Shown here piece by piece: positions 1 through 8,576 of a DNA stretch of 64,000 bases (positions within the stretch are counted from its first letter, which is position 1; every line of letters begins with the position of its first letter). Made by a program: the position numbers and the translations under genes. Location of the stretch: the IMG/VR virus record IMGVR_UViG_3300031555_003522, positions 96,001-160,000 of that record; one strand, 5' to 3'. The stretch is from a virus (lineage: Duplodnaviria > Caudoviricetes). The notes under the pieces were generated by a model. That model saw only the letters and a program-made list of their open reading frames with translations, made no database searches and had not been told where the DNA came from.

Positions 1-236
1 AGTAAAACCGCAAGCTAATGGCGGAAGAAAAATCCGGCTCCTTTATAAAGTCACCCATTTATAAAGGATGAATATATAGTCTATACACTATTGAAAAATA
101 GTGGTACCCTATGGTGACAGAAGGTACTCTTATAAAGTTGCGTTTATAAGAAACTATCAATATCTAACGTAATTTAATCAATATATTCTCTCTAACCTTT
201 CATTAATTCTATATGATGAAAGGAGGTGTAAAACAG

Positions 237-1415
237 ATGGCTCAAAAATGTAAAGCCAATTCTGATAATTTGCGCGGTCATAAAGTTAGAATATATCCTA
301 CTGAAGAGCAAAAGGATAAAATACTATCTTTTATAGATTCATATAGAGCTATTTATAATATAGCTATTGGGTCTCAGATAGATTATTATCGTTCTGGCGG
401 AATATTTATTACATTTAATCAAATGTGTAAGAAATTTGCCGATATGAGAAATAATAATGAGAATTTCAAATGGCTAAATAATATGTCTATAGGAATTATA
501 AGAGAAGCTTTAATAGATGCTGATGTAGCATTTACAAAATTCTTTGCTAAGATTAATAGATTTCCTAAATTTAAGTCTAAGAAAAGATCTAAAAAATCAT
601 TTGGAACTAGATCCGATAGGTGTCATATCGATGGAAGAAATATTTATATATCAGGAGTAGGTTTGGTTGATGCTAAAGATCATCATATTCCAGAAGGGGT
701 TAGAATGTATAAAACCAGAATAACTTACGACGGATATGATAAATTTTGGTTTTCATGTACAACCGAAAAAGATATGGAATTTCTTCCTATTGAAGGATTA
801 GGTAAGCCTATAGGTGTTGATGTGGGTATAAGACACATGATAACAACATCGGATGGCGAAGTTTATGAACTATCAAATTTTTCGAAATTAAACAAAAGAC
901 TTAAACAAAAAACGCGAAGAGCTATGCGCTCTATGAGGAAATATATAAATCAATCAAAACGTACGAAAATCAAGTATGAGGATATACCAAAATCTAAGAA
1001 TCACTATAAACGAATGAAAGAATGGGTTAAGATTAGTAATCGTATAGAGAATAAAAAATCTTATGATACTAATGTGGCTACTAGACGTATAATAGATAAA
1101 CATCCTTCTGCTATTGTAATAGAGGATTTGTGTTTATCTAAAATGCGAAAAAGAAATTGGATGAAGAAATTCGTACCACAAATAGTATTTAGAGATATAC
1201 ACAGACAATTGGAATATAAGGCTGCTGAATTAGGTATACCTGTAATAAAAGCAGATCGATTATACCCATCATCACAATTGTGTAGTAATTGCGGTTCAAT
1301 ACGTAAACTTAATTCTTCCGTTTATAAATGTAAAGTTTGTGGATTACGGATAGATCGTGATCTGAATGCTGCTATAAATCTTAGAAATTTGGCATATAAA
1401 AATGCATATGTTTAG
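237..1415 (+). CDS. tnpB: TnpB RNA-guided endonuclease (IS607/IS605-type)
   Basis: N-terminal HTH (KVRIYPTEEQK), FPKFKSKK, RuvC-I GVDVG, RuvC-II VIEDL, Zn finger CSNC..CKVC, RuvC-III DRDLNAAINL; all three acidic catalytic residues are present. RBS AGGAGGTG at 221-228 favours ATG 237 over 213. Confidence 0.95.
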   Translation: MAQKCKANSDNLRGHKVRIYPTEEQKDKILSFIDSYRAIYNIAIGSQIDYYRSGGIFITFNQMCKKFADMRNNNENFKWLNNMSIGIIREALIDADVAFTKFFAKINRFPKFKSKKRSKKSFGTRSDRCHIDGRNIYISGVGLVDAKDHHIPEGVRMYKTRITYDGYDKFWFSCTTEKDMEFLPIEGLGKPIGVDVGIRHMITTSDGEVYELSNFSKLNKRLKQKTRRAMRSMRKYINQSKRTKIKYEDIPKSKNHYKRMKEWVKISNRIENKKSYDTNVATRRIIDKHPSAIVIEDLCLSKMRKRNWMKKFVPQIVFRDIHRQLEYKAAELGIPVIKADRLYPSSQLCSNCGSIRKLNSSVYKCKVCGLRIDRDLNAAINLRNLAYKNAYV

Positions 1416-1467
1416 TTTGCATATTACCACTTTCGGTGGATAGTGATATAATGTAAAAAGAATATAT

Positions 1468-1638
1468 GTACCGTGCACTATACACGGGAGTTAAAGCCTT
1501 TGGAGAGCCTCGTACCACGAAATTTATCTAAATTTTGTGGCCGACATGTACTCGCGATATATGTTGGAGGGGTTCTGTGAATTAGGAAATCATACTTAAC
1601 ACGTACAATAATTACGTTAGAAGTTGATATATAGAAGG
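1468..1638 (+). ncRNA. TnpB omegaRNA scaffold / transposon right end
   Basis: Immediately 3' of tnpB: hairpins 1471-1487, 1515-1540, 1541-1567, stem 1505-1511/1569-1575, TGAATTAGGAA, terminal hairpin 1590-1628, ending ..AGAAGG. The layout resembles IS607-type right ends. Confidence 0.75.
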
Positions 1639-2632
1639 CAAGTCGAGCACAATGATGAATATCTTATATCAGTTAAAGAAGTATAATCGTGACTATAAAA
1701 CAAAAGACCCGACGAAGAGACCATGTATCGTATTATTGACAATGGAGAATACAGTTATAGAGTCTATTGATCGACTCTTTAATATGGCTACAGGTCATAA
1801 GAGGATGACGGATTACTCTCCTGAGGGAGCAATGAGAATGTTCAGAGAAGAGGGTGAGCTATATCTAACGGATGAATCTCCGATAGATATCATCATCAAA
1901 TTTGAACCTTCTAATTCTGTGGACACAAGTTATCTATATACTCTTACCGAAGATCTTGAAGATCAAGGTATGGAAGTAATAGCACTATTCCAGGATTATA
2001 TTGGCCGTATTCGTTCAACTGAACGGCTCCAAGAAACTCGTTTGGAATATGGTGCAATTGTTGATGAGTTTAAAACATTTGCTGAGATTAAAGATATTCC
2101 TGTAATAACTGCTGCTCAGCTAAACAGAGATGCTTCTAAGCATATAGATGAAGGTCGTAAAGCCAGTAAGTCCGATCTTGTTAGACTTATTGGTAGATCT
2201 AATATTAGTGAGTCTATGTTGATCCTGAACAATATCGATGCAGGATTCCTGATAGCTCCAGAAACTACTCAAACAAATGAAAGATATCTTGGTGTACAAA
2301 GAATAAAAATTAGATATGATGCTGGAGATAGAGAATTTGTATACTTGCCATTTGTCGGCGATACACTAAAGCTAGAGGAAGATTTTGGAAGGGTTGCCGT
2401 ATTTAAGACAACTATGAAAAATGATCCCTTTGGTGGACAAATTGGCACAAATAAATCTCAGTATCAAACTAATACAATTATGGATCTTGGCCAGGTTATG
2501 AGATCTTCCGGAAATGAGAATAATATGTTCTCGGCCAAGGTCATGAGTGGATCTATGGATACTTTAGCAAATAAAAGTTCCATGGTATTCACAGAACTTG
2601 TTGAACCAATTATATTCGATGATGTTGTATAA
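1634..2632 (+). CDS. dnaB: DnaB-like replicative helicase, 3' exon
   Basis: In-frame (E)GKS Walker A remnant just upstream of ATG 1652; LTME, FQDYI (Walker B), ITAAQLNR, ISES motifs. Confidence 0.88.
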   Translation, partial: EGKSSTMMNILYQLKKYNRDYKTKDPTKRPCIVLLTMENTVIESIDRLFNMATGHKRMTDYSPEGAMRMFREEGELYLTDESPIDIIIKFEPSNSVDTSYLYTLTEDLEDQGMEVIALFQDYIGRIRSTERLQETRLEYGAIVDEFKTFAEIKDIPVITAAQLNRDASKHIDEGRKASKSDLVRLIGRSNISESMLILNNIDAGFLIAPETTQTNERYLGVQRIKIRYDAGDREFVYLPFVGDTLKLEEDFGRVAVFKTTMKNDPFGGQIGTNKSQYQTNTIMDLGQVMRSSGNENNMFSAKVMSGSMDTLANKSSMVFTELVEPIIFDDVV

Positions 2633-2635
2633 ATA

Positions 2636-2680
2636 AAATAGGCTAGAGGTTGAATCCTCTAGCCTATTTATTTTTTTTTT
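2636..2680. terminator. Bidirectional intrinsic terminator
   Basis: AAATAGGCTAGAGG-loop-CCTCTAGCCTATTT plus T-run, between convergent genes. Confidence 0.85.
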
Positions 2681-3095
2681 AATCTTTTTTATCATTATAA
2701 AATGATATAGCTTTAGCTTCAGAATTATATATATGGCTTATTAAAGATGACATATGATCTTTTCTAAGCATTTTAAGTCTCGGCTTAGTAAACTCTTTTA
2801 CATCTGCCATATCATTTAAGAGAAGTATTATAAAGTATAGTTCCGGATTACCATAGATATCATAGCATAAGACTTTAGGCTTATAGAAATATGCCCACTG
2901 TTGTGCCTCAGTAAGTTCAACGGTAACACAAGCATTTTTAAGCTCAGCTAAATAATCATTTACAACATTCAATACGGTAACCCAAGTTCCATTACTTATT
3001 TTATCTACAAAAGATAGATCCATATAATCTATACTAACGCTTTTACCAGATTCGATAAATTCCTCTATAGTCGTTGTTTCTTGAGGTAAAGACAT
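2679..3095 (-). CDS. LysM-like baseplate wedge protein (T4 gp53-like)
   Basis: Motif YKPKVLCYDIYGNPELYFIILLLN. Confidence 0.65.
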   Translation of the reverse strand: MSLPQETTTIEEFIESGKSVSIDYMDLSFVDKISNGTWVTVLNVVNDYLAELKNACVTVELTEAQQWAYFYKPKVLCYDIYGNPELYFIILLLNDMADVKEFTKPRLKMLRKDHMSSLISHIYNSEAKAISFYNDKKD

Positions 3096-3231
3096 CTCAA
3101 AGGCCTCGCTTCCTATAATTATTAATCCTATGGGGAACTATTATTTAATTAATAGTTCGGGCTTACTCAATTATATTACAGTTCTTGGGTGTTGTAGCCC
3201 AAGAACTAATTTTATTTAGAGGTATTAAACT

Positions 3232-3699
3232 ATGAATGACTTTGATAAGGAAATCAATCTCAAAATCATGCAGGAACTGGGTTTAGAGCCCAATAGACAC
3301 AGACAATTAATAGATCAAGATTCTGGAATGGCTATTGCTATTAATGGCATGCCAGTAATGGCTCCTGGTTATTATGGTGGTCGCAACTCTATTGAATTTG
3401 ATCCGTATAATAATAAAAAGATGATGAATCAGTTATTCGGTCTTTTCTTAGAAAAATATGCCGATGAAAATGGCGTAAATGTATCTGCTTTCTATAATAT
3501 CGATGGGAAAGATAATTCTGGTCGAGTAGAATGTAAGTTTAGTGATAATCAGACAGTTACATCTGAAAGCTATTCTAGGGATACTTTAAAGTATGTAGAT
3601 ATAGTTATGCAACTTAATGGAGATAGCAGATGTAGCGAAGATCTTCGTAAATATGATATTGTAGAAAAGAAGCAAGCGGTTAGAGCAAAAAGGGGTTAA
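3232..3699 (+). CDS. Hypothetical protein
   Basis: 155-aa ORF with GAGGT RBS. Confidence 0.8.
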   Translation: MNDFDKEINLKIMQELGLEPNRHRQLIDQDSGMAIAINGMPVMAPGYYGGRNSIEFDPYNNKKMMNQLFGLFLEKYADENGVNVSAFYNIDGKDNSGRVECKFSDNQTVTSESYSRDTLKYVDIVMQLNGDSRCSEDLRKYDIVEKKQAVRAKRG

Positions 3700-3702
3700 G
3701 CT

Positions 3703-4911
3703 ATGGGAAATATAGTACTAACCCCAAAGCAGCAATCTATCGTAGATGCTGCTGTAAAATGGTATTATAATTCATCTGAACAGATATTCCAATTTGCCGG
3801 TAATCCTGGTACTGGTAAGTCTGTTGTTATGGATGCAATTATAAAAGCTATCGGAATAGAGCCTATGGCTGTAGCTCCTATGGCATATGTAGGAGCTGCA
3901 TCAATAAATATGAGACTAAAGGGTTTGACAAATGCTAAAACAATTCATTCCTGGATTTATGAAATCGTAGAAGTTCCTGTTAGGGATGAATTAGGACGCA
4001 TTAAGATGAATGAATACTTTAATCGTCCGGAGTTTGTATATAAATATAGACTTAAAGATTTATCTCATATAGATCTTATAGCAATAGATGAGGGTGGAAC
4101 GGTTCCACTTAAAATGAGAAATGATATTTTAAGTCTTGGTAAAAAGGTTCTTGTTGCTGGGGATCTTGATCAATTACCTCCAGTTGTTGATCAACCAGCA
4201 TTTTTGGTGGATGGAGAGATTCACGTATTAGATGAAATCCTTAGGCAGGCTGCAAATTCAGCAATTATATATTTATGCCAAAGGGCTAAGAAAGGACTTC
4301 CTATCCATACTGGAATGTATGGTAATGAAGTTATGGTTATGGAAGAAAAAGATTTCCTTCCTATAGCCCCTCAAATGTTGCTTGCTGCTGGGGTTGTATT
4401 ATGCGCAAAAAATGAAACTAGAGCCAAATATACAGATCTTATTCGTCATGATGTTCTTCATAAGCACAGTATTCTACCAGATCAAGGTGAGAAATTGATC
4501 TGCAAAATGAATGACTGGAGAATGGAAAGTGGCGGAATTAATCTAACAAATGGTCTTACAGGTCGTGTTATAAATCAGCCGGATGTTTCTACATTCGATG
4601 GAAAATGCTTTAGAATTGATTTTATGCCAGATCTAGGCAATGCGCCATTTATGGAACTTCCTGTTGACTATGAATATTTCTCTGCAGATCCTCAAATGAA
4701 GAAGGATATGAAGAATTTTAATTTCCGTAATGGAGAAGCTTTCGAATATGGATACGTTCAAACTGTTCATACTGCTCAAGGATCTCAGTGGACTAATGGT
4801 ATTTATTTTGAAGAATGGCTTCCTCAAAATAATAATCAGCTTCATTATACAGCCTTAAGTAGATTCAGGAGTAAATGTATCTATATTAAGAAAAATAGAA
4901 AGTATTGGTAG
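3703..4911 (+). CDS. SF1B (RecD/Dda-like) DNA helicase
   Basis: GNPGTGKS, TIHS, IDE, GDLDQLPPV, EILRQ, TVHTAQGSQW, YTALSR. Confidence 0.92.
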   Translation: MGNIVLTPKQQSIVDAAVKWYYNSSEQIFQFAGNPGTGKSVVMDAIIKAIGIEPMAVAPMAYVGAASINMRLKGLTNAKTIHSWIYEIVEVPVRDELGRIKMNEYFNRPEFVYKYRLKDLSHIDLIAIDEGGTVPLKMRNDILSLGKKVLVAGDLDQLPPVVDQPAFLVDGEIHVLDEILRQAANSAIIYLCQRAKKGLPIHTGMYGNEVMVMEEKDFLPIAPQMLLAAGVVLCAKNETRAKYTDLIRHDVLHKHSILPDQGEKLICKMNDWRMESGGINLTNGLTGRVINQPDVSTFDGKCFRIDFMPDLGNAPFMELPVDYEYFSADPQMKKDMKNFNFRNGEAFEYGYVQTVHTAQGSQWTNGIYFEEWLPQNNNQLHYTALSRFRSKCIYIKKNRKYW

Positions 4912-4921
4912 GTGGATTTAT

Positions 4922-5509
4922 ATGTCTAATGAAGATAAAAAGCTAGTACAACCTATTATATTTAATGATGAGAATACTAGCAAACAAGACGAAAATGCTA
5001 AACTTATAAGACCAATAATTTTCGATGCCCCGACTAAGGACGTTGAAGAAAAGACGTATATCATTCTATACAATATAGATCCAGAAGATGATATGGATGA
5101 AATATATAGTAGAATTTTCTCTGTATGTATAGGAAGAACAGATGCATATTTCGATATTAAAGAAAAATTAACCTCTGGACTTGGCGTGAATATTTACACA
5201 TCTAAAGTTATTACAGAGACTAAGCAGACTGAAACAGAGAGTGGGGATACGAAGTATTATCTTCTTCCTTATGATGAATGTGTGAATATTTATGCATTCT
5301 GTACTGGTATCCAATCATTTTATGGAGAAGATGGTTTTGATATAAATGATTATGTCAATAATGGTTCTCCCGATGATAAGGATGATATGGAGAATAATAC
5401 ATTCTTTCTAACTCCAGAGCAGAAGGCTTATAGAGCTATGATAGATGAAGCTATGAATATGCGAAGAAGTACTAATAACCCGCAGTCTAATGACAATCCT
5501 ACTGTATAA
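4922..5509 (+). CDS. Acidic hypothetical protein with two N-terminal PIIF motifs
   Basis: 195-aa ORF; VQPIIFND and IRPIIFD. Confidence 0.8.
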   Translation: MSNEDKKLVQPIIFNDENTSKQDENAKLIRPIIFDAPTKDVEEKTYIILYNIDPEDDMDEIYSRIFSVCIGRTDAYFDIKEKLTSGLGVNIYTSKVITETKQTETESGDTKYYLLPYDECVNIYAFCTGIQSFYGEDGFDINDYVNNGSPDDKDDMENNTFFLTPEQKAYRAMIDEAMNMRRSTNNPQSNDNPTV

Positions 5510-5530
5510 AAATAATATAAGATTTGATCA

Positions 5531-5545
5531 TATATTATTTATATG
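5531..5545 (+). promoter_or_regulatory. Putative early promoter TATATTAT-N5-TG (representative copy)
   Basis: Same spacing at 8683, 20090, 23168, 26916, 31060, 35776, 45271, 46930 and on the minus strand near 62730; variants at 7557, 14712, 15931, 18153, 18663. Resembles the phiKZ early TATATTAC. Confidence 0.8.
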
Positions 5546-5598
5546 AAAACTATTAAAGTTTATTATGAATATCAAATACACATAAGGAGAATCAAATT

Positions 5599-6012
5599 AT
5601 GGGAAACAATAATAACAAAAATAAAAAACGTAGTATGCCTAAGAATCCTGATCCATTGTCCAATGCTAAGGTAATGGGCAGAGAGGGCATGAAAATGATT
5701 CGTAATATCGCATTTGGTAATTTCAACTTTTATAACGAGGGACATGTGTTCCGTAATCCTGATTTTGTCAGAAATATCATAATTGAAGTGGATAAGAGAA
5801 TTCTTGATGCTAGTATTCATCTTACTGCTTTAAATTATGCGTATCCTGGAACAAATGAGCCGAGTGTACTTGGTTTGATCCATAGAGATACGAAGACTTA
5901 TGAAGGATACATGCTTGTACGACAGGTTCTTGAAGGTATTCTGAAGACTGGAGACACACGTCTTCTTTATACACTCATGACCAAATTGCCTGAGTATAAG
6001 TACAATATGTAA
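5599..6012 (+). CDS. Hypothetical protein (candidate sRNA target)
   Basis: 137-aa ORF, AAGGAG RBS, own promoter and terminator. Confidence 0.85.
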   Translation: MGNNNNKNKKRSMPKNPDPLSNAKVMGREGMKMIRNIAFGNFNFYNEGHVFRNPDFVRNIIIEVDKRILDASIHLTALNYAYPGTNEPSVLGLIHRDTKTYEGYMLVRQVLEGILKTGDTRLLYTLMTKLPEYKYNM

Positions 6013-6100
6013 CATTTTAATAAGAGCAATGGACATAGGGCTTGGCTCTATGTCCATATTTCTTTATTATAATTATCTTTTTTTATAAGGAGGAAAAATA

Positions 6101-7438
6101 ATGGATGCTAAACAGATCCAACTGTTAAAGGAAACACATATGCAGGAAGTAGAAAAGGAAGATGGTACTAAAACTACTCTTGGTGCATATATGCGTTTCT
6201 GCTTAGATGGCGGTATTGATTTTGTAACATCTAAAGATCTCGTTGTCTTTGATGATGCAAATAATATGCTGCATTGTGTTGCTGTTAATGAAGATGGTAA
6301 ATCTCAGTGCAATTATCCTGTTAAGGTTATTAGCACAGACTATGGTATCGTACAGCAGGTAGAATCTATCTATAGTCAGAAGGACTTCGAAAAGGCTTTG
6401 AATAGTGGATTCCTGAAGGATGTTGTAAGTGAAGAAAAGCGCAATGCTATGTTGGCTTGGTCTCGCAATATTCGTAATCAGGCCATTCAGCCCAGTCGTC
6501 CTACTCCCTACTATACCATCGACCCCACTATTATACCTATGGGTAATACATCTATGCCTCGTGTAGATGGACTTACTGGTACGACTGGTAATTCTGCTCC
6601 TGTAATTCGTTCTGCATCTTCTGCCGCAGAATTGACCAAACTGATGAGTAGCGGTTCTTTGAAATCTGGAGATAGCATTGTTGTTGATGCAGATGTTGTC
6701 TTTGATGAAGATTTCACATTCAAGGGTGATGGTATTACCCTACGTTCCAATGGTGCCACTTTCAATGGTGTATTGACTGCTGAAGGTAAGGATATCAACA
6801 TTACTGGATTTAACTTCGCATGTACAAATGATGAAACAGATGCATATGCGGCAAAGGGCACAGCAATGGTTAAGATCGATGGTACTGCTACTATTACTGG
6901 TTGTACTTTTAAGCCCACTGGTAAGTACTATAATGCTATCAATGCTAATGGTAATCTGACTCTGGAGTCTAATAACTTTGAAGCTTGTGAAGATAACGTA
7001 TACAATCTGATCGAGTTCTCTCAGAGGGAGGACCAGAAGATTGCTAATGTAGAAATCTCTTACAATACGTTTGCTAAGGGTGCTTCTAAAAATAATACAA
7101 TTAGCATGTTCCAGTTCGAGGATGGTGCAACAATCAATATCCTCAATAACATTTGGGATTATGCTGCTAATGCTATTCGTATCAGTAATTATAGTAAGGC
7201 TATTGGTGTCATTATCAACTGCGTGGATAATGAATACAAGGAAACTTCTGAAGATGAATATGCTGGATTCTTGCTTGCTCAAGGTACCGAACAGAATAAG
7301 GATATGTCCGGTATTACGGTTAATCTTATCCGTCTGGTTGGCCCCAATGGTAATACTGTTACCAAAAATGGTACTGGTAATGATCAGGTCTGGTATACCT
7401 ATGGTACAGAGGTTGACCCTGTCGTTAAGTTCCATTAA
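6101..7438 (+). CDS. Protein with C-terminal parallel beta-helix (pectin-lyase-like), possibly virion-associated
   Basis: Repeating ITGFNF/ITGCTF/LESNNF/ISYNTF/ILNNIW strands; strong RBS. Confidence 0.65.
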   Translation: MDAKQIQLLKETHMQEVEKEDGTKTTLGAYMRFCLDGGIDFVTSKDLVVFDDANNMLHCVAVNEDGKSQCNYPVKVISTDYGIVQQVESIYSQKDFEKALNSGFLKDVVSEEKRNAMLAWSRNIRNQAIQPSRPTPYYTIDPTIIPMGNTSMPRVDGLTGTTGNSAPVIRSASSAAELTKLMSSGSLKSGDSIVVDADVVFDEDFTFKGDGITLRSNGATFNGVLTAEGKDINITGFNFACTNDETDAYAAKGTAMVKIDGTATITGCTFKPTGKYYNAINANGNLTLESNNFEACEDNVYNLIEFSQREDQKIANVEISYNTFAKGASKNNTISMFQFEDGATINILNNIWDYAANAIRISNYSKAIGVIINCVDNEYKETSEDEYAGFLLAQGTEQNKDMSGITVNLIRLVGPNGNTVTKNGTGNDQVWYTYGTEVDPVVKFH

Positions 7439-7709
7439 TACTTTACTAGAAAATGAACTAACTAATACATGTAGGGGTTTATGCCCCTACATGTATATAC
7501 TATTTTGCCAATCTATTTATTGTTATATTTTACTAGACTAAACGCAAAAATAACGATATAATATATTGGTGACCTCAGTATAAAGGGCGGATGTTTTCAT
7601 CCACCTTTTCATTATTAAATTATATCCCTAGCAACAAATTTATAATGGAAAAGTGATGTTTATATCTGATCCAAAATAAAATTCAAAATCATTATTAGGA
7701 GGAACAAAC

Positions 7710-8576
7710 ATGAACAACGCACAGTTTTATCCCAACAACGCCTACGCAAATCCTTATGGCGTCAACTACGCTGTCCCCGCTAAGCCCCAGGCGAAGAATG
7801 GCCAGCCTCTGACTCAGGAAGAGATCAATCACCTGAGATCTATGTCTGGTGCTGAAACTCTTGATATCAAGATCAGCACTGATGACGTTCTGATCGCTAA
7901 GTGTACTCACCGTGAGAAGAATGGCACAGATTCCCTGGTTAACCTTGGTGGTGACCGTTGGCGCTGCACGATTTGTGGCCAGGAGTTCAACATGTTCAAT
8001 GGAACCGTCGAAGAAGTCACTAATGCTGTTGGTACCATTATTGATATCCTGCAGACTTCTAAGTCCATCTATCGTGATGCTCCGGATAGCTTGACCGGCC
8101 AGTATTATCAGCTGATTCCTCTGCTGAAGAAGCTGCCCAACGTCTTCCAGGCATCTCTGAACAATTTCTCCAAGTATGAAAATTGGCAGCAGGCTCCCGA
8201 ATTCACTGCTAATGGCTACTATCCCGGCTTTACCGCTATGCATAATCTGTTGACCGGTCAGTTCATGCCCGGCATGGCTCCTGGCTATGGCTATCAGCAG
8301 CCCGCATACGGTTATCAGCAGCCCATGATGCAGCCCATGCAGGGTGGTTATGCACCTAACCCTGTTGTGACTCCTCAGCCCACTGCTGGTTATTATCAGC
8401 AGCCTGTGATGCAGCAGTACGATCCCAGCGGTAATCCTCTGGCTTACGGTGCTCCTGTTGCTCCTGCACCCGTAGCTCCCGCTCCTGGTGCAATTCCCGC
8501 TGCTCCCGTAGCAGCACCTGCAGCTGCTCCCGCTGCTCAGTCTGAGGTTCAGCAGACAGCTGTCTTCAATGTGTAA
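7710..8576 (+). CDS. Zn-ribbon protein with Q/P/Y/A low-complexity tail
   Basis: CTH..CTIC; C-ending-rich codon usage; both promoter motifs upstream (7557, 7633); terminator 8612-8651. Confidence 0.85.
   Translation: MNNAQFYPNNAYANPYGVNYAVPAKPQAKNGQPLTQEEINHLRSMSGAETLDIKISTDDVLIAKCTHREKNGTDSLVNLGGDRWRCTICGQEFNMFNGTVEEVTNAVGTIIDILQTSKSIYRDAPDSLTGQYYQLIPLLKKLPNVFQASLNNFSKYENWQQAPEFTANGYYPGFTAMHNLLTGQFMPGMAPGYGYQQPAYGYQQPMMQPMQGGYAPNPVVTPQPTAGYYQQPVMQQYDPSGNPLAYGAPVAPAPVAPAPGAIPAAPVAAPAAAPAAQSEVQQTAVFNV

What the first reader, a model, noticed from the sequence alone, without database searches (positions are those of the whole stretch)
155..1634. Mutually exclusive fold: intron-closing helix versus omegaRNA terminal hairpin
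1610-1629 (AATTACGTTAGAAGTTGATA) can pair with 155-174 (18 Watson-Crick pairs, one G-U, one mismatch), looping out 1.4 kb and bringing the 3' splice site to the core. It can instead pair locally with 1590-1606 (ATCATACTTAACACGTA) to finish the omegaRNA. A transcript from the internal promoter near 205 lacks 155-174 and could form only the guide fold. Inference: promoter choice separates splicing from guide production.
Basis: partly seen in the sequence, partly recalled or inferred. Interest (0 to 1): 0.75.

Follow-up and report, generated by a model that had tools for sequence, protein, structure and literature searches.

The report
Known IStron splice-versus-guide RNA switch
The long-range pairing is real and conserved, but it is the already described "IR stem" of a group B IStron (a self-splicing intron fused to a TnpB guide-RNA element), here splitting a phage helicase gene. 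Its competition with the guide RNA's last hairpin is published, and the proposed internal promoter is not supported.

Summary
Observation confirmed. Window 155-174 and 1610-1629 form a 20-position helix (18 Watson-Crick pairs, 1 G-U, 1 A-A). The 3' arm can instead fold back on 1589-1605 (13 bp, about -8 to -10 kcal/mol).

The element is a 1,876-nt IA2 group I intron that starts 241 nt before the window. It carries TnpB (237-1415) and an omegaRNA-like 3' end. It splits the Walker A motif of a divergent DnaB helicase in a 208-kb uncultured phage.

Twelve related elements have the same long-range helix at the same place with different sequences. Cognate arms average -18.0 kcal/mol against -7.9 for non-cognate arms. 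All also have a weaker local hairpin.

This matches the "IR stem" and "3' DR" of group B (IS607-type) IStrons (Tourasse 2014). These are known from Clostridium botulinum phage c-st, whose copy I compared directly. The splice-versus-guide antagonism through the terminal omegaRNA stem-loop was shown experimentally (Zedaveinyte 2023; Mortman and Sternberg 2026).

No sigma-70-like promoter lies near 205 here or in 8 of 11 elements (the window's included), and published IStrons make guide RNA from the same transcript.

Verdict: a new member of a known kind, of low to moderate interest. First readers of this scan had flagged the same stretch before.

The parts
1..85 (+). 3' part of the ribozyme core; the intron starts 241 nt upstream of the window, at L001:1259. 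It includes the P7 3' strand (76-81) and the two J7/9 bases (84-85) that pair with the two bases before omega-G (P9.0).
   Evidence: The core aligns with 10 related introns, and 46 of 101 predicted pairs show compensatory change. It is about 70% identical to introns of Twort-like Staphylococcus phages. P7 and P9.0 covariation was read.
86..151 (+). P9 (86-103), P9.1 (104-127) and P9.2 (128-151) hairpins of the extended domain 9.
   Evidence: Three consecutive hairpins in the RNAalifold consensus, each with compensatory changes. This is the layout described for IStrons (PMC4227781).
155..174 (+). 5' IR: the 5' arm of the long-range 'IR stem'.
198..209 (+). Spacer segment complementary (10 of 11 positions) to the conserved scaffold motif at 1579-1589. 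It may extend the long-range pairing. Its role is unexplained.
   Evidence: The duplex prediction pairs this segment with the start of the terminal scaffold motif. Analogous but non-identical segments occur in L096 and L098.
222..228 (+). Shine-Dalgarno sequence of tnpB.
   Evidence: The purine-rich motif is conserved 8-10 nt before the ATG in the related elements.
237..1415 (+). tnpB (392 aa from the ATG at 237; the mechanical ORF starts at 213). The RuvC D-E-D residues and the zinc-ribbon cysteines are intact.
   Evidence: Pfam hits Cas12f1-like_TNB, HTH_OrfB_IS605 and OrfB_IS605. The invariant columns of 53 homologues (D203, E304, D381/D383 and the Cys residues) are all present. It is 31% identical to the TnpB of the phage c-st IStron.
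1424..1452 (+). Promoter-like site (10 of 12 hexamer matches, TG before the -10) just after the tnpB stop and upstream of the scaffold. It is not conserved in the relatives.
1466..1634 (+). OmegaRNA-like scaffold: a conserved hairpin, a conserved long-range 3-bp helix, a variable hairpin and a terminal stem-loop.
   Evidence: Thirteen related elements were aligned, and 10 of 15 consensus pairs show compensatory change. The scaffold resembles that of the phage c-st IStron. No Rfam family matches.
1589..1605 (+). 3' DR: the 5' strand of the terminal omegaRNA hairpin. It is a degenerate direct copy of the 5' IR.
1610..1629 (+). 3' IR: the shared arm. It pairs either with 155-174 (intron fold) or with 1589-1605 (guide fold).
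1632..1634 (+). Terminal trinucleotide UAG, ending in omega-G at 1634. The relatives have CGG or UGG.
   Evidence: The two bases before omega-G covary with core positions 84-85.
1635..2632 (+). Helicase exon 2. Its first 16-20 nt or so would be the omegaRNA guide.
   Evidence: The Pfam divDNAB profile stops at position 86 in exon 1 and resumes at position 89 in exon 2. At least 116 of the 120 listed uninterrupted homologues read G-L-P-(G/A)-E-G-K-(S/T) across the junction, and P0121 is 95% identical over exon 2.

Best explanation
The stretch is a transposase-less group B (IS607-type) IStron. It is an IA2 group I ribozyme followed by tnpB and an omegaRNA scaffold, inserted in the Walker A codons of a phage DnaB-like helicase. 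The pairing 155-174/1610-1629 is the family's 'IR stem'. This helix follows P9.2, loops out tnpB and most of the scaffold, and places the last five intron bases at the core. The two bases before omega-G then form P9.0, and exon ligation restores the helicase. The same 3' arm is also the 3' strand of the scaffold's terminal stem-loop, paired with the '3' DR' at 1589-1605. TnpB needs that stem-loop to use the downstream exon as its guide. Each RNA molecule can therefore either splice or mature into a guide. By analogy with the studied IStrons, the choice is set by the relative stability and folding order of the two helices and by TnpB binding, not by a separate promoter. Shown here: both helices exist, their positions are conserved and their sequences covary, the splice junction is fixed, and TnpB looks intact. 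Inferred: actual splicing, actual guide activity, and which factor tips the balance in this phage.
For: The helix is present and far better than shuffled controls. Thirteen elements, with TnpB only 45-60% identical to the window's, carry an IR stem at the same place with different sequences. Cognate arms average -18.0 kcal/mol against -7.9 for non-cognate arms. Each of the seven elements whose arms are clearly distinct in sequence (L001, L096, L107, L109, L110, L236, L240) ranks its own partner first. L096 sits at the same helicase site, yet both of its arms differ from the window's. The stems hold 235 Watson-Crick pairs and 9 G-U pairs against 1 A-C mismatch, which points to selection on the transcribed strand. 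A terminal hairpin built on the same 3' arm is predicted in every element. Blocking the 5' arm switches the fold. The core is a covarying IA2 ribozyme with P7, P7.1/P7.2-like hairpins and P9-P9.2. P9.0 covaries, and the window's unique UA before omega-G is matched by a unique UA in the core. The junction is confirmed by uninterrupted homologues. The c-st phage IStron shows the same layout: a 35-bp IR stem directly before the last bases, a CGG end and a similar scaffold. In the literature, the IR stem, the 3' DR, the GG target and G at exon position -1 are described in PMC4227781. The overlap of SL5 with intron sequences, and stability deciding RNA fate, are in 10.1101/2023.11.20.567912 and PMC13521648.
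Against: There are no expression data for this uncultured phage. Rfam's group I model gives no hit, so the ribozyme assignment rests on homology to phage introns and on covariation. The local hairpin is weak, and its cognate advantage is small (-5.8 against -3.6 kcal/mol). Thermodynamically the IR stem should therefore dominate, and real competition would need kinetics or TnpB binding. The window's copy ends in UAG, whereas any change to the terminal CGG cripples DNA cleavage in the studied CboIStron (PMC13521648). TnpB-guide activity of this particular copy is therefore uncertain. The family label 'IS607-type' cannot be checked through a serine recombinase, because none is present.
Confidence: 0.8

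Rival explanations
1. One reading: two promoters partition the fates. The helicase promoter gives full-length RNA that splices. An internal promoter near 205 gives RNA lacking 155-174 that can only form the guide fold.
For: An RNA starting after 174 could indeed only form the local hairpin (blocked-arm fold). One promoter-like site does exist downstream, at 1424-1452 just before the scaffold. Such a site would have the same effect.
Against: No promoter-like site lies between 152 and 237 in the window, and none in 8 of 11 elements (the window's included) at the same criteria. The region is not conserved apart from the ribosome-binding site. The 1424-1452 site is not conserved, and the recurring hexamer pair in relatives falls on a conserved TnpB peptide. 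In the region scanned, promoter-like sites are no more frequent than in shuffles (8 found against 10.9 expected). In the studied IStron, one transcript yields both the protein and a working guide, and TnpB processes the guide (10.1101/2023.11.20.567912). The phage's own promoter types are unknown, so the scan is not exhaustive.
Confidence: 0.1
2. The inverted and direct repeats are DNA-level features: relic binding or synapsis sites for an IS607 serine recombinase, or substrates for ORF deletion by recombination. On this view they are not functional RNA helices.
For: IS607 ends carry imperfect AT-rich inverted repeats presumed to bind TnpA. In BcISt1 the direct repeats mediate ORF excision in E. 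coli (PMC4227781).
Against: No element of this family carries a recombinase gene next to tnpB. The phage record has no resolvase-domain gene. Complementarity is nevertheless kept while the sequence changes. G-U pairs outnumber A-C mismatches 9 to 1 on the transcribed strand. The helix sits exactly where the ribozyme needs its 3' end, next to a covarying P9.0.
Confidence: 0.07
3. The IR stem is only a passive loop-closing helix, and the terminal hairpin is only a TnpB handle. The two never compete in practice, because guide RNAs come from excised introns or processed fragments, so there is no regulatory switch.
For: The IR stem is 10-13 kcal/mol more stable than the local hairpin, so equilibrium favours splicing.
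Against: Splicing cuts the scaffold from its guide, so an excised intron cannot supply a guide (10.1101/2023.11.20.567912). In two studied IStrons, strengthening the base of the terminal stem-loop abolishes splicing (PMC13521648).
Confidence: 0.1

Closest known systems
Group B (IS607-type) IStrons: BcISt1, CbISt1-4 (including copies in Clostridium botulinum phages c-st and D-1873), CsISt1, CboIStron and CseIStron-1
   Same: An IA2 ribozyme with P9.0-P9.2. The cargo lies directly after P9.2. A long AU-rich IR stem encloses the ORF. A 3' direct repeat is complementary to the 3' IR. The target contains GG, and the exon ends in G paired with C. The scaffold ends in CGG in the relatives. ORF A is often missing. 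The omegaRNA scaffold and core are recognisably similar to the c-st copy (PMC4227781; PMC13565253).
   Different: The target motif here is GG-N-G, where N covaries with the internal guide, rather than TGGG, AGGG or GAGG. The TnpB is only 31% identical to the c-st copy. No member of this family that I fetched has tnpA. The window's copy ends in UAG with a compensating core change. The hosts are large uncultured phages, and the insertion sites are replication and transcription genes.
IS607-family TnpB-omegaRNA (for example CboTnpB, with a TGGG TAM and a scaffold ending UCGG)
   Same: tnpB is followed by a structured scaffold of about 170-220 nt that runs to the element's end. The guide is the flanking sequence, and a G-rich motif lies on the other flank.
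   Different: Activity, TAM and guide length were not tested here. There is no transposase partner, so the nuclease would serve intron homing rather than transposon retention.
Group I introns of Twort-like Staphylococcus phages and related Firmicute phages that carry protein homing endonucleases
   Same: The ribozyme core is homologous, at about 68-72% identity over 230-325 nt, and the introns sit in essential phage genes.
   Different: The cargo here is an RNA-guided nuclease with its guide scaffold. As a result, the intron's 3' end is shared with a second functional RNA.

Membership tests
Group I intron, subgroup IA2 | Conserved core helices P3-P8 with P7.1/P7.2 and an extended domain 9 (P9.0, P9, P9.1, P9.2), supported by covariation. 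| tested here: met
   In an RNAalifold consensus of 11 related cores, 46 of 101 pairs show compensatory change. P7 and P9.0 covariation was read. The core is similar to Twort-like phage introns. The Rfam group I model gave no hit.
Group I intron, subgroup IA2 | Omega-G as the last intron base and precise exon ligation that restores the host ORF. | tested here: met
   G1634 precedes exon 2. The junction restores the Walker A motif seen in at least 116 of the 120 listed uninterrupted homologues. Splicing itself was not observed.
Group I intron, subgroup IA2 | [quoted passage not shown] | tested here: not met
   The exon ends in G, which pairs with C of the internal guide. The base at -2 pairs by Watson-Crick rules and covaries (T-A, C-G, A-T). 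This exception is the documented hallmark of group B IStrons (PMC4227781; PMC13565253).
Group B (IS607-type) IStron | The IS cargo is inserted directly downstream of P9.2. | tested here: met
   The 5' IR starts 3 nt after P9.2 (window 152-155), and the position is the same in all relatives.
Group B (IS607-type) IStron | A long AU-rich IR stem (15-34 bp, more than 80% AU) encloses the ORF. | tested here: met
   The window has 19 bp with 14 A-U pairs and 1 G-U pair. The relatives have 12-23 bp, mostly A-U. The c-st reference copy has 35 bp.
Group B (IS607-type) IStron | A 3' direct repeat of part of the 5' IR lies immediately upstream of the 3' IR and is complementary to it. | tested here: met
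   The repeat is at window 1589-1605. Local hairpins are predicted in all 13 elements.
Group B (IS607-type) IStron | A GG-containing target, an exon that does not end in U, and an element that ends in CGG. | tested here: inconclusive
   Exon ends read by eye or aligned for 9 of the 11 cores are GG-N-G; L240's exon end is unresolved. Of the 13 elements, 9 end in CGG and 3 in UGG. The window's copy ends in UAG, with a compensating change at core positions 84-85.
Group B (IS607-type) IStron | An IS607 serine recombinase (ORF A) or its remnant. | tested here: not met
   There is no ORF between the 5' IR and tnpB, and no resolvase-domain match in the 208-kb record. Copies with ORF B only are accepted members in the literature (CsISt1; PMC4227781).
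TnpB-omegaRNA (OMEGA) nuclease | An intact RuvC catalytic triad and zinc ribbon in TnpB. | tested here: met
   The invariant D203, E304, D381/D383 and Cys columns of 53 homologues are present in the window's protein.
TnpB-omegaRNA (OMEGA) nuclease | RNA-guided cleavage of a TAM-flanked target that matches the flanking guide. | not testable with these tools
   This needs a plasmid-interference or in-vitro cleavage assay.

The most novel reading that the evidence does not exclude
In this transposase-less phage lineage the fold switch may serve intron homing between co-infecting phages. Molecules caught in the hairpin fold arm TnpB against intron-free helicase alleles, which are common (P0121 is 95% identical). 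Molecules in the IR-stem fold restore the helicase. A guide-only transcript from the promoter-like site at 1424-1452 might add a second, transcript-level layer of control. The window's UAG end, compensated in P9.0, would then show that splicing is kept while the nuclease handle drifts.
Probability: 0.15. Interest if true: 0.5.

Novelty: new member of a known kind. Interest (0 to 1): 0.3.

Why it matters
The finding gives independent comparative support for a mechanism so far shown by mutagenesis in two Clostridium elements. Thirteen diverged elements, with both helices kept through sequence turnover, indicate that the IStron 3' end must serve two RNAs. It also shows that transposase-free IStrons of this type are common in large uncultured phages. 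There they sit in helicase, RNA polymerase and DNA polymerase genes, and intron homing by an RNA-guided nuclease is the obvious way for them to spread. It does not open a new question, because the switch itself is published.

Tried and rejected
- **Rfam.** Scans of the window (1-8000) and of the upstream locus gave no group I intron or omegaRNA family. The S15-leader hit in exon 1 (E about 0.001, below its gathering score) was treated as chance.
- **Relative searches from the single TnpB protein.** Searches in viral and genome collections found nothing. A profile search in viral contigs found only distant TnpBs of 37% identity or less, which I did not use.
- **DNA-pattern scans for the scaffold motif.** Two viral contigs matched.
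- **Promoter near 205.** Rejected.
- **Alternative 3' splice site after 1638.** I considered this by analogy with the GG ends of the relatives. I rejected it because it breaks the reading frame and disagrees with L096 and with the uninterrupted homologues.
- **5' splice site one base earlier (after U/C).** Rejected because the window's intron would then end in A.
- **Formal pair counting with the alignment tool.** I used cognate versus non-cognate duplex energies instead.
- **Not attempted.** No structure or complex prediction was run, because none would change the verdict.

Full report
**Where the window lies**

The window is bases 96001-160000 of a 207,861-bp uncultured virus record. I fetched 1.5 kb upstream as L001, so window coordinate = L001 coordinate minus 1500.

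An ORF for the N-terminal part of a divergent DnaB-like helicase ends in L001 at a stop just inside an insertion. A second ORF, at window 1652-2632, carries the rest of the helicase. Between them lie about 450 nt of non-coding sequence, a TnpB gene and about 220 nt of non-coding sequence.

**The observation**

The inverted-repeat search returns arms at window 155-174 and 1610-1629. They are 20 nt long and 90% complementary, and they are the only pair of that quality in 2.2 kb.
- Read by hand, the helix has 18 Watson-Crick pairs, one G-U and one A-A mismatch.
- Its duplex energy is -21.2 kcal/mol. None of 2,000 shuffles of the 3' arm reaches that value.
- The 3' arm can instead pair with 1589-1605. 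The hairpin has 13 bp in three short segments and an energy of -8 to -10 kcal/mol.
- In an in-silico construct without the ORF, the minimum-energy fold uses the long-range helix with pair probabilities near 1. Blocking 155-174 makes the 3' arm fold back locally, at a cost of 6.8 kcal/mol.

**What the element is**

The 5' non-coding part is about 70% identical to group I introns of Twort-like Staphylococcus phages and other Firmicute phages.

TnpB homologues of 45-60% identity are numerous in metagenome assemblies. I fetched the contigs for eleven of them.
- Where the upstream flank was held, the preceding gene mostly ends about 430-480 nt before tnpB (farther in L109 and L238).
- The interrupted genes include the same helicase (L096) and an RNA polymerase subunit. 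In other loci tnpB sits next to a divergent DNA polymerase gene or just upstream of a DNA ligase gene.

Aligning eleven cores gives a consensus fold in which 46 of 101 pairs show compensatory change.
- It has P2, P3, the P4-P6 domain, two hairpins between P7 and P3' (P7.1 and P7.2), P8, and three consecutive hairpins P9, P9.1 and P9.2.
- P7 cannot be drawn by a nested predictor, but it covaries by eye, with three different six-base versions on both strands.
- This is the IA2 architecture.

TnpB keeps the RuvC D-E-D residues and the zinc-ribbon cysteines. Its true start is the ATG at 237, behind a strong ribosome-binding site that is conserved in the relatives.

The 3' non-coding part is a conserved, covarying structured RNA. 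Ten of its 15 consensus pairs show compensatory change.

**Splice junction**

- The Pfam divDNAB profile stops at position 86 in exon 1 and resumes at position 89 in exon 2.
- At least 116 of the 120 listed uninterrupted homologues read G-L-P-(G/A)-E-G-K-(S/T) across the site. One of them, P0121, is 95% identical over exon 2.
- The only junction that yields this sequence and leaves a terminal G on the intron is after L001:1258 and after window 1634.
- The exon therefore ends in G, not U. That G and its two neighbours pair with a three-base internal guide, and the middle pair covaries (T-A, C-G, A-T) across the elements.
- The two bases before the terminal G pair with two bases just after P7 (window 84-85). 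Among the eleven cores this P9.0 pairing is CG with CG in five, UG with CA in three and mismatched at one position in two. It is UA with UA only in the window's copy.
- The window's odd UAG end is thus compensated in the core. This argues that splicing is under selection here.

**The helix in the relatives**

All twelve related elements have a long-range helix that starts a few bases after P9.2 and ends 4-8 bases before the 3' splice site. The sequences differ widely between elements.
- Cognate arm pairs average -18.0 kcal/mol against -7.9 for non-cognate pairs. Each of the seven elements whose arms are clearly distinct in sequence ranks its own partner first.
- L096 occupies the same helicase site as the window's copy, yet it has different arms on both sides.
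- The stems contain 235 Watson-Crick and 9 G-U pairs against one A-C mismatch. This fits selection on the RNA rather than on the DNA duplex.
- Every element also has a weaker terminal hairpin built on the same 3' arm, at -3 to -9 kcal/mol. The bases at the foot of that hairpin change in step with the start of the 5' arm.
- The cognate advantage of the local pairing is small (-5.8 against -3.6 kcal/mol), so support for it is weaker than for the IR stem.

**Comparison with what is known**

Tourasse et al. 2014 (PMC4227781) describe IStrons with these features:
- The IS part lies downstream of P9.2.
- The ORF region is flanked by inverted repeats that form an 'IR stem'. In group B (IS607-type) this stem is 15-34 bp and more than 80% AU.
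- In group B, a direct repeat of part of the 5' IR lies just upstream of the 3' IR and is complementary to it.
- The targets contain GG, and the exon does not end in U.
- Copies often lack ORF A. Members occur in Clostridium botulinum phages c-st and D-1873.

I fetched the c-st copy. It has a 35-bp IR stem directly before its last bases, a CGG end, the same bases after P7, and a scaffold visibly similar to the one here. Its TnpB is 31% identical.

Later work covers the function:
- Zedaveinyte et al. (10.1101/2023.11.20.567912) showed that splicing and guide maturation are mutually exclusive. They also showed that scaffold structure alone and TnpB each repress splicing, and that one transcript supplies both tnpB and a working guide.
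- Mortman and Sternberg 2026 (PMC13521648) showed that the terminal stem-loop is the only scaffold element that overlaps intron sequence. Strengthening its base abolishes splicing while cleavage persists, the last 18 nt suffice for splicing, and the terminal CGG is needed for all functions.
- A 2026 review (PMC13565253) states that IStrons without TnpA could spread by intron homing.

**The promoter inference**

The consensus scan finds no site between P9.2 and the TnpB start. In the region scanned, sites are no more frequent than in shuffles. The same criteria find none in 8 of the 11 elements, the window's included.

A good-looking site lies just after the tnpB stop (1424-1452), but it is not conserved. 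A hexamer pair that recurs in the relatives falls on a conserved TnpB peptide, so coding explains it.

The phage's own promoter types are unknown, so this is absence of support rather than disproof.

**Transposase**

No resolvase-domain gene exists in the record, which is estimated at 84% complete. None lies next to tnpB in any fetched element.

**Verdict**

The element is a new, phage-borne, transposase-less member of the group B IStron kind.

Noticed in passing
window 1632-1634 and 84-85: The element ends in UAG, where all 12 relatives end in CGG or UGG. The two bases before omega-G are matched by a unique UA in the core, so P9.0 is kept. In the studied CboIStron, any change to CGG cripples DNA cleavage. 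This copy may therefore splice yet be a poor nuclease guide.
   Followed up: partly
window 198-209 versus 1579-1589: A spacer segment just before the tnpB ribosome-binding site is complementary (10 of 11 positions) to the conserved scaffold motif that precedes the terminal hairpin. Analogous segments occur in L096 and L098. It could extend the intron fold and unzip more of the scaffold.
   Followed up: partly
window 1424-1452: A promoter-like site (10 of 12 hexamer matches, TG before the -10) lies directly after the tnpB stop and about 10 nt before the conserved scaffold begins. It is not conserved in the relatives.
   Followed up: partly
window about 11864, 12292 and 47780; G000 about 54605, 55219, 56871, 57318, 164736, 165405, 166262, 166527, 166847, 179438-179661: The conserved J6/7-P7 core motif of this intron recurs at a dozen or more places in the phage record. 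A 224-nt paralogous core (72% identity) lies at 179438-179661 on the minus strand. The phage seems to carry many group I introns but only one TnpB.
   Followed up: partly
L096, L098, L103, L106, L107, L109, L110, L236, L238, L240: A family of transposase-less TnpB introns in large uncultured phage contigs (up to about 250 kb). They lie in or beside helicase, RNA polymerase and divergent DNA polymerase genes and other genes. The exons I could read mostly end in GG-N-G, and N covaries with the intron's internal guide.
   Followed up: partly
window 213-236: The mechanical ORF start at 213 is probably wrong. The ribosome-binding site lies at 222-228, and homologues align from the ATG at 237.
   Followed up: yes
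L096 3615-3643, and equivalent sites in L098, L103, L107 and L238: A near-consensus -35/-10 hexamer pair recurs inside the 3' end of tnpB. It coincides with the codons of the conserved RuvC-III peptide, so coding constraint explains it. A second role as a scaffold promoter cannot be excluded.
   Followed up: no
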